NCBI RefSeq assembly: GCF_009914755.1
Contig: NC_060931.1
Strand: one strand, 5' to 3'
Source: the human T2T-CHM13v2.0 reference genome, Homo sapiens
Length of the DNA: 64,000 nucleotides
Part shown: positions 18,161-34,470 of the stretch, piece after piece
How positions within the stretch are numbered: position 1 is the stretch's first letter
Layout of the letters: the number at the start of each line of letters is the position of its first letter
Position numbers and translations under genes: made by a program
The notes under the pieces: model-generated
The model's input: the letters and a program-made list of their open reading frames with translations, nothing else
Databases searched by the model: none
What the model was told of the DNA's origin: nothing

Positions 18161-18735
18161 TTAATCTGTGGACAGAGTAATGCTAATACTAGGAGGTCTC
18201 TGCTGACCTGATTGATGCTTCATTGGAAGTTCAGTTCTTTCTGAAACGTAAATAAGCTTTTCTTCTTGGAGACTACAAGCGGAAAACCTATTGGCATCTG
18301 TCCCAGCCCCACAACCAACAGCAGATGACGGGTTATGTGGGACTGTGACACCACTGACTTGTTCAAAGGATTTACTAAATACAGTCGCTGCGGTCTTAGC
18401 CAAACCATGGCTACTAGGCTTAGGTAGGGATTGGCTGGTTGTTAAAGTAAGTCTCTTCAAAGAGAGAAGCTCAAGATTCTCACTTTGGGCTCTCTGAGTT
18501 TGTTTTCGAGCAAAGTGATCTTTGCAAGATTCCCCTGTAGTTTCTTTTTCTTTTCCTCCAGTTTTGCTTCCTCCTGACCGTCTGTGGTTCTTTCCTATAC
18601 TTGGCTTGTTACTACAATTGTGACTACTGTTTGATAAACCCGACTGGCTGGTACTAGACGCAGCCCTGGAATAAAATCCCTCGTCAACTTCAGATATCTC
18701 CATCAGTTCTTCTTGACCTGTTAATTCTGTATTTC
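18161..18735 (-). CDS. HYCC1: Hyccin last coding exon (exon 11; aa 331-521, disordered tail with PSISIT)
   Basis: Acceptor tttgtttag|GAAAT (AG at 18737-18736); phase 1; [10 protein letters not shown]...[11 protein letters not shown]; 575 nt completes the 1566-nt CDS. Confidence 0.97.
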
Positions 18736-19435: not shown

Positions 19436-19498
19436 CATGCATTTGGATTAGATTACATGCAAAATTTTTGTGACTGTGCAACTGCTGCTTAACATGCA
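19436..19498 (-). promoter_or_regulatory. Cluster of three RBFOX-binding TGCATG motifs downstream of the alternative exon
   Basis: catgca on + at 19436-19441, 19456-19461 and 19493-19498; a fourth at 19011-19016. Confidence 0.75.
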
Positions 19499-19550
19499 TC
19501 AGTGGCCCTTTGCCTTAAGATACCTTGGAGTGCAGTTATAAAGTGCTCTG

Positions 19551-19819
19551 CTAAAACTGCACTCTGCCAGGTGAGTTTATTCCATCCTCCATCATTTTTC
19601 TTACAGATTTTTGCCTCCTGATCTCTGGCAAGCCTTTGCTCTCAGTTCTAGGATCTGTGGCTGTTTCCTGCACACCCTGTATATGCTGAGCATCAATCTC
19701 TCCTAGTGTTCTGCCTTTTTCCCCATTCCCGGTTCTCTCTCCGGCCACATTTGTGACACTAATCTCAGGAATGACAAGGATGCCCAATTCAGTAGCATCA
19801 TTATTGTTGTCAGGTTGCT
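19551..19819 (-). CDS. HYCC1: Alternative hyccin C-terminal exon (exon 19524-19819, 296 nt) giving a 419-aa isoform ending ...SPGRVQF*
   Basis: Acceptor ttcaattctag|AG with ~70-nt AG-free pyrimidine zone; phase 1 matches exon 10; 89 open codons; donor AAG|gtatct at 19523. Confidence 0.85.
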
Positions 19820-20954
19820 CTAGAATTGAAGATGATAAGACAAAATGATGGATGAAAACAAAACAAAAACGTGAAATGAGAAAAGCAAAAGACTCAAAAC
19901 AAAAATTAGATGACTGAATGTTATGAATTAAGCCAAATATTTGCACTGTAGTAATTTCCATAATTTATAATACTCTGATAGCACCAGAGACAATAGGGTC
20001 ATATTCTTTAATTTTAAATGACAAACAAAAAATTCACAGAGCATCAATTCACGTTCTGCATTTTTTCACACACACATTTCACATGGAATATGAAAGATAA
20101 ATTTTCTAATAAATCAAAATAAAATTTGTTTTTAAATTGTTCTTTTTGTGTTCTTTGGGTAATTTTCTAGTGTTTTTAAGATAATATGGTGACCACCTGA
20201 ATTTATGTCAAGTCTTAGGCAAATGTTCAAGGATCTACAGCCAAACCTTTAGCTTTTGTCAACATTAGGAACCAAGCCACACAGAAGTTCCCCTTTGTAC
20301 TCTTAAAATTCTAGTTTTTTTATGAGGCTACATTGAGACTGACTTAATAAACCATGATATTTGGGAAAATGCTTATTCATATATGATATCATGGTTAGTA
20401 ATGGCACAGGTATAGTTTTTGTCTCACATATACATCATCTATTATTAACAGTAAGTATTAATGTGGCTGTGATATAGTTAAGCAGTTGATTTATTCAGAC
20501 TCATACCAATTTCATAAATTTAGTTCATTACTAGACTAGAGAAAAATAAAAATGGATTTGGAAAAACAAATTCGTTGTCAGCCCTTTATCTGAAAACAGC
20601 CATTATAAATGAAACAAAGAAACAAAACTCCTAACTAGTTAATACCTGTAGACATGATTTTATTCTGGTCTTAAATAAGAAAGGCATAATGTTACAAGGA
20701 GTTATTCATGTAAATGGGGAAAAGTAACATAAATATACCTAGAAGGTGACAGTAGTGAAACAAAGTTCAAAGCAACATAAGACTATGTAAAACAGCATAT
20801 ACTTTTTAAAAACTGTAGACCACAAACCTGCTTATGGGACATCACCTACTATTTTCAAATACTTTCGTGATAGGATTATCAGACTCCCACTAATGATGCT
20901 AAAGGCTGAGAAACAGCAACAGGTAGTAAAAGAACAAAGGCCAGAGCCACATAT

Positions 20955-34404: not shown

Positions 34405-34470
34405 TGTGTGTGCATGTGTGTGTGTGTCTGTGCATGTGTGTGTGTGTGCATGTGTGAGTGTGTGTGTATG
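34405..34470. repeat. Imperfect (TG)n microsatellite
   Basis: gtgtgtgtgcatgtgtgtgtgtgtctgtgcatgtg... Confidence 0.9.

What the first reader, a model, noticed from the sequence alone, without database searches (positions are those of the whole stretch)
19524..19819. Alternative hyccin tail swaps phosphatase-docking motifs: PEISVT (calcineurin PxIxIT-type) plus terminal RVQF (PP1 RVxF-type)
Seen: including this exon after exon 10 gives a 419-aa isoform that loses the canonical tail, including PSISIT (aa 512-517; 18176-18193) and S485. The new tail has PEISVT (aa 348-353; 19752-19769), a basophilic IRRQKS402 site, an S-P-x-R CDK-type site (S413) and ends in R-V-Q-F-stop (19554-19565). Established: hyccin's PSISIT is a calcineurin PxIxIT docking site within the PI4KA complex, and [RK]-[VI]-x-[FW] is the PP1 docking consensus. 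V-x-F-COOH also fits a class II PDZ ligand. Inference: two unrelated, mutually exclusive tails each carry a PxIxIT, so splicing may retune calcineurin affinity and add PP1 or PDZ recruitment to the plasma-membrane PI4P-synthesis complex. The isoform itself may already be annotated; the motif reading is my inference.
Basis: partly seen in the sequence, partly recalled or inferred. Interest (0 to 1): 0.8.

Follow-up and report, generated by a model that had tools for sequence, protein, structure and literature searches.

The report
Conserved alternative hyccin tail with calcineurin motif
A known alternative exon of the human HYCC1 (hyccin) gene encodes an old, conserved replacement tail whose best-kept piece looks like a calcineurin docking site, while the proposed PP1 site at its end is not conserved.

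Summary
Exon 19524-19819 (minus strand) has an AG acceptor and a GT donor. Spliced after exon 10 it gives a 419-aa hyccin with PEISVT (348-353), RRQKS402 and a terminal RVQF. The exon and isoform are already in print as "exon 11", a "C-terminally truncated" protein of unclear function.

What I add:
- **Age:** the tail is an ancient coding sequence, found from ray-finned fishes, coelacanth and lungfish to human.
- **PEISVT:** it is the most conserved hexamer of the tail, rank 1 of 83 over 22 lineages. P, I/L, V/I and T are kept, the x positions vary, and position -1 is always I or V.
- **Precedent:** the identical PEISVT core of amphiphysin co-purifies with calcineurin in vitro. A hydrophobic -1 residue raises affinity about 10-fold.
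- **Accessibility:** the tail is predicted disordered.
- **RVQF:** the terminal F is present in only 10 of 22 lineages, with Y, C, L or T elsewhere, so the PP1 reading is not supported. S413-P is also poorly conserved.
- **RRQKS402:** nearly invariant.

Calcineurin binding itself is untested. No search found the motif reading in print.

The parts
19524..19819 (-). Alternative penultimate exon of HYCC1, long form (296 nt). It encodes residues 331-419 of the 419-aa isoform plus 27 nt of 3' UTR before the donor.
   Evidence: hub annotation; called 'exon 11' in PMC5105168.
19605..19819 (-). Short form of the same exon, using the internal donor TCT|GTAAGA. It gives a 406-aa isoform ending RRQKSEIQN, with its stop in the last exon.
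   Evidence: 406-aa models with the same break after RRQKS exist in birds and frogs.
19820..19880 (-). Acceptor AG (19821-19820) and the long pyrimidine-rich tract upstream of the exon.
   Evidence: Read directly.
19522..19523 (-). GT donor of the long exon form (CAAG|GTATCT).
19743..19772 (-). Extended PxIxIT-type motif I-P-E-I-S-V-T-N-V-A (positions -1 to 9). The core PEISVT is at 19769-19752.
   Evidence: Rank 1 of 83 hexamers for conservation. P-x-[IL]-x-[VI]-T in 100 of 103 sequences, with -1 always I or V. The identical core in amphiphysin binds calcineurin.
19767..19778 (-). L-V-I-P, overlapping the P of PEISVT. It matches the loose LxVP pattern L.[ILV]P, so the whole reads LxIPxIxVT, like the combined motif described for MAP3K7.
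   Evidence: match; pattern and MAP3K7 precedent. The first position is L in 52 of 100 sequences and F in 26, so it is only moderately conserved.
19596..19625 (-). E-I-R-R-Q-K-S402-V-R-K: a nearly invariant basophilic serine block. The V-R codons (GTAAGA) are also the internal donor.
   Evidence: Hexamers of this block rank 2-4 and 6 of 83. Lungfish has RRQRP.
19551..19565 (-). R-V-Q-F and the TAG stop. The stop ends 27 nt before the exon-exon junction.
   Evidence: The terminal residue varies: F 10, Y 7, C 3, L 1, T 1 of 22 lineages.
19436..19498 (-). Three TGCATG (UGCAUG, RBFOX-type) hexamers at 19498-19493, 19461-19456 and 19441-19436. They lie 26-88 nt downstream of the long-form donor.
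   Evidence: 20 minus-strand copies in the 64-kb window, three of them here.
18176..18193 (-). Canonical PSISIT (aa 512-517) in the last exon. It is lost from both alternative isoforms.
   Evidence: validated calcineurin site in PMC8523714.

Best explanation
This is an ancient, protein-coding alternative penultimate exon of HYCC1. The splice choice falls exactly at the end of the folded hyccin domain, at aa 330. It exchanges the 191-residue disordered canonical tail for an unrelated 89-residue tail (419-aa form) or 76-residue tail (406-aa form). The canonical tail carries the LTLT and PSISIT calcineurin sites and S485.

The new tail is under protein-level constraint. Its two best-kept elements are [IV]-P-E-I-S-V-T-x-V and E-I-R-R-Q-K-S-V-R-K.

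My reading is that IPEISVT is a second, isoform-specific PxIxIT docking site for calcineurin. On that reading the so-called truncated isoforms keep calcineurin on the PI4KA complex. What changes is what lies next to it: S485 and LTLT are lost, and a conserved basophilic serine (S402) is gained as a likely kinase and calcineurin target.

The terminal RVQF is not a conserved PP1 site.

Inclusion of the exon is known to depend on hnRNP F, AKAP95 and TRA2-beta. Three UGCAUG just downstream suggest RBFOX control as well.

Shown here: exon anatomy, deep conservation, the motif pattern and predicted disorder. Inferred: calcineurin binding, S402 as a substrate, and RBFOX control.
For: Anatomy
- Splice sites, frame and stop are as described.
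- The Pfam Hyccin domain ends at residue 330, and the tail matches no Pfam family.
- Solved structures cover residues 1-308 only.
- AlphaFold2 gives pLDDT below 50 for residues 289-419.

Coding constraint
- One search found 55 proteins with the tail at E <= 0.01, among 113 candidates.
-, a profile search, found 90 at E <= 1 among 8000 scored candidates.
- One search found 15 at E <= 0.001 in a library of 1.84 billion representatives.
- The named hits span placentals, marsupials, platypus, birds, crocodilians, turtles, lizards, frogs, a caecilian, a newt, lungfish, coelacanth, bichir, sturgeon, paddlefish, gar and one teleost.
- Many models are exactly 419 aa long.
- In-frame indels in the middle of the tail leave the downstream EIRRQKSVRK...GR.Q block in frame.
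- Identity of the tail to human is comparable to that of the canonical tail, and higher in sauropsids and platypus:

| Species | Alternative tail | Canonical tail |
|---|---|---|
| Gharial | 86% | 72% |
| Leatherback turtle | 84% | 73% |
| Platypus | 89% | 76% |
| Ascaphus (frog) | 71% | 70% |
| Coelacanth | 68% | 65% |
| Sturgeon | 56% | 62% |
| Gar | 49% | 58% |

Motif
- PEISVT has the lowest mean column entropy of all 83 hexamers, 0.118 bits against a tail mean of 1.04.
- Of the 103 sequences examined, 100 carry a hexamer of the form P-x-[IL]-x-[VI]-[T or I].
- The counts are PEISVT 89, PEISIT 3, PELSVT 2, PEINVT 2, PDISIT 1, PSISVT 1, PDISVT 1 and PEISVI 1.
- Position -1 is I or V in all 100.
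- The validated canonical motif is more variable. T becomes Q or H in ray-finned and cartilaginous fishes, and its -1 is P, S or L.

Literature
[quoted passage not shown] S3D legend). Its context there is FVPEISVTT.
- Hydrophobic residues at -1 raise affinity about 10-fold, and an I-to-V change at position 5 has little effect (PMC6728138).
- PI4KA's own IKISVT binds the same groove.

Not a decay switch by the junction rule
- The stop lies 27 nt before the last junction in the long form and inside the last exon in the short form.
Against: - No binding data exist for this peptide. Flanks matter, so an identical core in another protein is a precedent and not proof.
- The loose PxIxIT pattern is common. 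It appears in 10.6% of shuffles, and 21,791 unvalidated matches are reported in the human proteome.
- One unnamed sequence, P0211, keeps the NGE, QGVQE and KRQKS blocks but has no PEISVT. One primate model reads PEISVI.
- The sequences compared are cluster representatives and mostly predicted isoforms. They are not independent, and some were modelled by homology.
- I had no orthologous DNA. Synonymous against non-synonymous change could not be measured, so RNA-level constraint (splicing enhancers, the internal donor inside the V-R codons) cannot be separated from protein-level constraint at each codon.
- I saw no isoform-specific peptide or ribosome-footprint evidence.
- The AlphaFold2 model weakly pairs ISVT (350-353) with 301-304. 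That hints at another use of the strand, but confidence there is very low.
Confidence: 0.55

Rival explanations
1. IPEISVT is a conserved strand-forming motif for a partner other than calcineurin. That partner could be another part of the PI4KA-TTC7-EFR3 assembly, or hyccin itself. The likeness to PxIxIT would then be coincidental.
For: - The whole stretch from -3 to +8 is conserved, more than a minimal six-residue motif needs.
- AlphaFold2 draws a short strand at 350-353 paired with 301-304.
- The loose pattern is frequent by chance.
Against: - The AlphaFold2 pairing sits at pLDDT below 50.
- The extended conservation, with hydrophobic -1 and aliphatic position 8, is what the 10-residue definition of PxIxIT predicts.
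- The identical core binds calcineurin in amphiphysin.
- The complex is a known calcineurin client that already has two other sites for the same groove.
Confidence: 0.22
2. The exon acts mainly by removing the canonical tail, or by regulating dosage. The new tail would have no function of its own, and its conservation would reflect RNA-level signals such as splicing enhancers, the internal donor and decay control.
For: - Papers treat the product simply as a truncated protein.
- The exon is purine-rich (62%) with GAA and G-run elements, and it is regulated by TRA2-beta, hnRNP F and AKAP95.
- The V-R codons after S402 double as a donor site.
Against: - The frame stays open, and is restored after indels, across roughly all bony vertebrates.
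- Replacements are conservative (D/E, I/V/L, K/R, S/T/A).
- Within PEISVT the variation follows the protein motif logic.
- The stop is 27 nt from the junction, inside the zone that the 50-55-nt rule (recalled, not taken from a call) spares from decay.
Confidence: 0.12
3. The terminal RVQF recruits PP1 through the RVxF groove.
For: - Human RVQF matches [RK]-x(0,1)-[VI]-{P}-[FW] (consensus recalled).
- Such a match at the exact terminus arose in 0.02% of shuffles.
- G-R-x-Q is nearly invariant.
Against: - The aromatic position is F in 10 of 22 lineages. It is Y in 7, C in 3, L in 1 and T in 1.
- Frogs end in RVQC, ray-finned fishes in RVQY or RSQY, marsupials in GRGPL and lungfish in KVQT.
- The 406-aa form lacks the motif altogether.
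Confidence: 0.07
4. The conserved C-terminus G-R-V-Q-[F/Y/C] is a ligand for a PDZ or other domain that reads the free C-terminus.
For: - 19 of 22 lineages end in [V/A]-Q-[F/Y/C].
- This tolerates exactly the changes that break an RVxF site.
- Terminal hydrophobic-x-hydrophobic arose in 6% of shuffles.
Against: - No partner is known.
- Marsupials (GPL), lungfish (VQT) and the teleost forms (SQY, SQH, GQH) depart from it.
- The class II consensus is recalled, not tested.
- The 406-aa form ends differently.
Confidence: 0.1

Closest known systems
Canonical hyccin/FAM126A PSISIT (aa 512-517), the validated calcineurin PxIxIT site of the PI4KA complex (PMC8523714)
   Same: - Same protein and same disordered C-terminal region.
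- Same P-x-I-S-[IV]-T core pattern, and the only local similarity between the two tails.
   Different: - It lies in a different, mutually exclusive exon.
- The residue at -1 is I or V rather than P, S or L, which on published rules should favour binding.
- There is no nearby LTLT or S485.
- Binding has not been tested.
Amphiphysin (AMPH) PxIxIT peptide PEISVT (bioRxiv 632547, Fig. S3D)
   Same: - Identical six-residue core.
- Hydrophobic residues at -1 and -2: FVPEISVT in amphiphysin against VIPEISVT here.
   Different: - An unrelated protein.
- Downstream flanks differ: TPSQ in amphiphysin, NVAG here.
- Only the amphiphysin peptide was assayed.
PI4KA horn IKISVT, a non-canonical ligand of calcineurin's PxIxIT groove (bioRxiv 2024.04.09.588654)
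   Same: - Same complex.
- Shared ISVT half.
   Different: - IKISVT lacks the leading proline.
- It lies in PI4KA, not in hyccin.
MAP3K7/TAK1 combined LxVPxIxIT motif (bioRxiv 632547)
   Same: LVIPEISVT reads as L-x-[I]-P-x-I-x-V-T, with one proline shared by the two patterns.
   Different: - The third position is I rather than V in most species.
- The first position is L in only 52 of 100 sequences.
- Not tested.

Membership tests
PxIxIT calcineurin-docking short linear motif | Core matches P-[^PG]-[ILVF]-[^PG]-[ILVF]-[^PG], ideally P-x-I-x-I/V-T | tested here: met
   PEISVT at aa 348-353 is the only match in the tail. The pattern is as given in bioRxiv 632547.
PxIxIT calcineurin-docking short linear motif | Lies in an accessible, intrinsically disordered cytosolic region | tested here: met
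   AlphaFold2 gives pLDDT below 50 for residues 289-419. Solved structures stop at residue 308. The tail matches no Pfam domain. This is a prediction, not a measurement.
PxIxIT calcineurin-docking short linear motif | Flanks compatible with binding: hydrophobic or polar but not acidic at -1 | tested here: met
   Position -1 is I or V in 100 of 100 sequences with the motif. The rule comes from PMC6728138.
PxIxIT calcineurin-docking short linear motif | Consensus positions conserved more than x positions and flanks | tested here: met
   Rank 1 of 83 hexamers. Changes are E to D or S and S to N at the x positions, and only I to L, V to I and one T to I at consensus positions. One unnamed sequence lacks the motif.
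PxIxIT calcineurin-docking short linear motif | Direct binding to calcineurin A that is lost in the motif mutant and in the NIR groove mutant | not testable with these tools
The only precedent is the amphiphysin peptide with the same core.
PP1 RVxF docking motif | [RK]-x(0,1)-[VI]-{P}-[FW] (consensus recalled) | tested here: met
   Human RVQF at 416-419 matches.
PP1 RVxF docking motif | The aromatic F/W position is conserved among orthologues | tested here: not met
   F in 10 of 22 lineages, Y in 7, C in 3, L in 1 and T in 1.
PP1 RVxF docking motif | Motif-dependent binding to the PP1 catalytic subunit | not testable with these tools
Class II PDZ ligand (hydrophobic-x-hydrophobic-COOH; consensus recalled) | Hydrophobic residues at positions 0 and -2 of the free C-terminus, conserved | tested here: inconclusive
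   [V/A]-Q-[F/Y/C] in 19 of 22 lineages. The exceptions are marsupial, lungfish and opah. The same pattern arose in 6% of shuffles.
Decay-inducing ('poison') cassette exon | Premature stop more than about 50-55 nt upstream of the last exon junction (rule recalled) | tested here: not met
   The stop ends 27 nt before the junction in the long form. In the short form the stop lies in the last exon.
RBFOX-activated cassette exon | UGCAUG in the proximal downstream intron | tested here: met
   Three copies lie 26-88 nt downstream of the donor, out of 20 on this strand in 64 kb.
RBFOX-activated cassette exon | RBFOX binding, and RBFOX-dependent inclusion | not testable with these tools
   12 papers hold both FAM126A and Rbfox; 10 were listed and none treats this exon in its title or abstract. 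I opened one. Supplementary tables were not searched.

The most novel reading that the evidence does not exclude
Alternative splicing of hyccin does not remove calcineurin control of plasma-membrane PI4P synthesis. It swaps one docking module for another.
- The canonical tail offers [11 protein letters not shown] and S485.
- The alternative tail offers a likely stronger IPEISVT, with a hydrophobic -1 and possibly fused to an LxVP-like LVIP, together with an invariant basophilic serine (RRQKS402) as the regulated site.

Tissues that include the exon would then couple Ca2+ and basophilic-kinase signalling to PI4KA in a different way. These may be RBFOX-expressing neurons, heart and muscle. This arrangement would have been kept since the origin of bony vertebrates.
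Probability: 0.3. Interest if true: 0.7.

Novelty: new member of a known kind. Interest (0 to 1): 0.5.

Why it matters
Hyccin loss causes hypomyelination with congenital cataract. The PI4KA complex makes the plasma-membrane PI4P pool, and calcineurin regulates that complex through hyccin's tail.

The alternative isoform is measured again and again in splicing studies (hnRNP F, AKAP95, TRA2-beta, MYC, cardiomyopathy). Each time it is dismissed as a truncation of unclear function.

A tail conserved across bony vertebrates, with a calcineurin-type motif at least as well kept as the validated one, turns that truncation into a testable regulatory isoform. It also cautions that proteome-wide motif screens restricted to canonical isoforms can miss conserved motifs that exist only in one splice form.

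Tried and rejected
- **Complex prediction with calcineurin or PP1.** Not attempted.
- **Codon-level conservation (PhyloCSF, dN/dS).** Not possible, because no vertebrate genomic DNA other than the window was reachable. I used protein-level column entropy instead.
- **Common origin of the two tails.** Rejected. BLASTP finds only the six-residue motif, E 0.95.
- **A Pfam family for the tail.** None at E <= 1.
- **A copy in the paralogue HYCC2 or outside bony vertebrates.**
  - No protein named as the paralogue or as a cartilaginous fish appeared among the 90 hits.
  - The canonical tail does appear in chimaera and sharks.
  - Absence here is weak evidence, because alternative isoforms are unevenly annotated.
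- **RBFOX regulation in print.** 12 papers hold both terms and 10 were listed. None is relevant by title or abstract, and I opened one.
- **S413-P-x-R as a CDK site.** Set aside. P414 is kept in about half of the lineages.

Full report
**1.

On the minus strand the exon starts at 19819, behind an AG (19821-19820) and a long pyrimidine tract. It ends at 19524 in front of GTATCT. It is therefore an internal exon that is spliced on to the large last exon.

A second donor, TCT|GTAAGA, lies after 19605 and gives the annotated short form 19605-19819.

Joining the annotated coding exons in a script gave three products:
- The 521-aa canonical hyccin, with PSISIT at 512-517.
- A 419-aa protein with the long exon, carrying PEISVT 348-353, RRQKS402, S413-P-G-R and a terminal RVQF.
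- A 406-aa protein with the short exon. It keeps PEISVT and RRQKS and ends EIQN, with its stop in the last exon.

The TAG of the long form ends 27 nt before the exon junction. By the 50-55-nt rule (recalled) neither form is an obvious target of nonsense-mediated decay.

**2. The exon and isoform are already known; the motifs are not**

- PMC5105168 (passages read) calls it exon 11 of FAM126A. It shows that AKAP95 and hnRNP F promote its inclusion in human cells, and that of the corresponding mouse exon.
- The same paper states that inclusion gives a 419-residue protein instead of 521, and that the effect on function is unclear.
- bioRxiv 634154 (passages) adds TRA2-beta as a regulator and again speaks of a truncated protein.
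- PMC9731204 lists FAM126A among MYC-regulated splicing events validated by RT-PCR.
- PMC5241776 reports both a cassette event and an alternative 5' splice-site event at this place in cardiomyopathy hearts. This fits the two exon forms.
- A full-text search for PEISVT found two papers, both about amphiphysin and neither about hyccin.
- Searches for FAM126A with calcineurin and PxIxIT, for HYCC1 with splicing and isoform and for FAM126A with 'C-terminally truncated' gave no paper that reads motifs in this tail.
- Supplementary tables were not searched, and those of preprints were closed.

**3. The tail is an old coding sequence**

Three searches with the tail found it widely:

| Query | Result |
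|---|---|
| 88-aa translation of the exon | 55 longer proteins at E <= 0.01, among 113 candidates |
| Profile of 12 tails (alignment A1) | 90 at E <= 1, among 8000 scored candidates |
| Same profile, exhaustive search of 1.84 billion representatives | 15 at E <= 0.001 |

- The named hits are hyccin isoforms of placentals, marsupials, platypus, birds, crocodilians, turtles, lizards, frogs, a caecilian, a newt, lungfish, coelacanth, bichir, sturgeon, paddlefish, gar and one teleost (opah). Many are exactly 419 aa long.
- 406-aa models that break after RRQKS exist in birds and frogs, so the internal donor is old too.
- In an alignment of 22 lineages, indels in the middle of the tail are in frame, and the downstream block EIRRQKSVRK..ED..GR.Q stays in register.
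- Identity to human is comparable to that of the canonical tail, and higher in sauropsids and platypus:

| Species | Alternative tail | Canonical tail |
|---|---|---|
| Gharial | 86% | 72% |
| Leatherback turtle | 84% | 73% |
| Platypus | 89% | 76% |
| Tenrec | 89% | 86% |
| Ascaphus (frog) | 71% | 70% |
| Coelacanth | 68% | 65% |
| Newt | 64% | 67% |
| Sturgeon | 56% | 62% |
| Gar | 49% | 58% |

- No cartilaginous-fish or HYCC2-named protein appeared with the alternative tail. The canonical tail is present in chimaera and sharks. This absence is weak evidence.

**4. Which motifs stand out**

Column entropy over the 22 lineages ranks the elements as follows:

| Element | Result |
|---|---|
| PEISVT | Rank 1 of 83 hexamers: 0.118 bits against a tail mean of 1.04 |
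| EIRRQK / RRQKSV / RQKSVR | Next in rank |
| RVQF | Rank 24 of 85 tetramers |
| Terminal residue | F in 10 lineages, Y in 7, C in 3, L in 1, T in 1 |
| P414 of the S-P-x-R site | Kept in about half of the lineages |

One search examined 103 sequences, all cluster representatives and so not independent.
- 100 carry a hexamer P-x-[IL]-x-[VI]-[T or I]. The counts are PEISVT 89, PEISIT 3, PELSVT 2, PEINVT 2, PDISIT 1, PSISVT 1, PDISVT 1 and PEISVI 1.
- Of the three my pattern missed, P0058 does hold PEISVT (seen). P0208 is a fragment that starts after the motif. P0211, an unnamed sequence, keeps the later blocks but has no such motif.
- The residue before the proline is I or V in all 100.

For comparison, looked at the validated canonical motif in 116 sequences. 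It reads PSISIT 64, PSICIT 21, PTISIT 12, PSIGIQ 4, PSISIQ 4 and a few others. It loses the T in ray-finned and cartilaginous fishes, and it has P, S or L at -1.

The two tails share nothing but the motif. The only BLASTP alignment between them is PEISVT with PSISIT (E 0.95).

**5. Why calcineurin is the best reading of IPEISVT**

- PSISIT in the canonical tail binds calcineurin directly, and S485 is calcineurin-regulated (PMC8523714, passages).
- LTLT 426-429 and PI4KA's IKISVT are further sites for calcineurin in the same complex (bioRxiv 2024.04.09.588654, passages).
- The identical core PEISVT from amphiphysin, but not a mutant, co-purifies with calcineurin (bioRxiv 632547, legend of Fig. 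S3D). Its context there is FVPEISVTT (PMC2173686), against VIPEISVTN here.
- Hydrophobic V, L or I at -1 raises affinity about 10-fold, acidic residues there reduce it, and PVIVVT binds about as well as PVIVIT (PMC6728138, passages).
- The tail is predicted disordered, with pLDDT below 50 for 289-419.
- It lies beyond the Pfam Hyccin domain, which ends at residue 330. It also lies beyond every solved structure, all of which stop at 308.

What is missing is any binding measurement. The loose pattern is common: 10.6% of shuffles and 21,791 unvalidated matches in the human proteome. I could not model the complex because no calcineurin sequence was available to the session.

**6. What else the tail offers**

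- E-I-R-R-Q-K-S-V-R-K is nearly invariant (lungfish has RRQRP). It carries basic residues on both sides of S402. From recalled consensus rules this is a basophilic kinase site of the PKC, PKA or CaMKII type.
- It is a natural candidate for the site that docked calcineurin would act on, but nothing here tests that.
- Part of its nucleotide conservation may serve the internal donor, because GTAAGA encodes the V-R after S402.
- L-V-I-P directly before the motif matches the loose LxVP pattern. It makes an LxIPxIxVT string like the combined motif of MAP3K7. The first position is L in only 52 of 100 sequences and F in 26, so I rate this low.

**7. Regulation**

- Three TGCATG hexamers lie 26-88 nt downstream of the long-form donor (19498-19436). 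The whole 64-kb window has 20 on this strand.
- Downstream UGCAUG is the classic arrangement for RBFOX-enhanced inclusion (recalled), which would predict higher inclusion in brain, heart and muscle.
- One other such triple exists in the window on the opposite strand (34411-34452), so clusters do occur by other means.
- The exon is 62% purine with nine GAA and several G-runs. This is in line with its published dependence on TRA2-beta and hnRNP F.

**8. Verdict**

- The anatomy is confirmed, and the isoform is known.
- The PP1 reading of RVQF fails that test.
- The conserved G-R-V-Q-[F/Y/C] end may be read by something that tolerates F, Y and C. A PDZ domain is possible but untested.
- I put about 0.95 on 'ancient functional coding exon' and about 0.55 on 'IPEISVT is a working calcineurin docking site'.
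- It is a new candidate member of a known motif class in a known client complex. That makes it moderately interesting and readily testable.

Noticed in passing
window 19436-19498 (-): Three UGCAUG (RBFOX-type) hexamers lie within 63 nt, 26-88 nt downstream of the long-form donor of the alternative exon. This suggests tissue-specific, RBFOX-enhanced inclusion.
   Followed up: partly
window 34411-34452 (+): Another cluster of three TGCATG within 42 nt, on the strand opposite to HYCC1. Its nature (a repeat or otherwise) was not examined.
   Followed up: no
window 19596-19607 (-): The internal donor GTAAGA doubles as the codons for V403-R404. The break after RRQKS is reproduced in 406-aa models of birds and frogs, each adding four out-of-frame residues from the last exon (EIQN in human; IILI, TLQI and ILEN in three examples seen).
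   Followed up: partly
P0052, P0053, P0054, P0088 (pangolins, squirrel, Komodo dragon); P0159 (sturgeon): Five gene models not labelled as isoforms join the first part of the alternative exon in frame to the canonical tail. In the four tetrapod models this is about 47 codons, ending ...QH[IM]Q (P0052 differs slightly at the junction); the sturgeon model joins later in the exon. Four of the five then carry both PEISVT and a C-terminal PxIxIT-type motif, while P0052 ends differently. The human window has a possible weak donor there (CAGG|GTGTGC), but no such exon is in the hub table. These are probably annotation artefacts.
   Followed up: partly
P0211 (unnamed representative): A hyccin fragment whose alternative tail keeps the NGE, QGVQE and EIKRQKSLRK..MEDG blocks but has no PEISVT-like motif. 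Its lineage is unknown. It shows that the basophilic block can be kept without the PxIxIT-like one.
   Followed up: no
Canonical tails: The validated PSISIT reads PSISIQ or PSIGIQ in sturgeon, bowfin, gar and reedfish. It reads PSFNVH or PSCNIH in shark and chimaera. KRLTLT is kept in 115 of 116 sequences. In ray-finned fishes the alternative-exon motif (PEISVT) is therefore closer to the PxIxIT consensus than the canonical one.
   Followed up: partly
AlphaFold2 model m9acb6a75e4f0 (P0011), residues 301-304 and 350-353: The model pairs the ISVT strand with the conserved IQVE strand just after the folded domain. pLDDT there is below 50, so this is not reliable, but it is a possible intramolecular use of the motif.
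   Followed up: no
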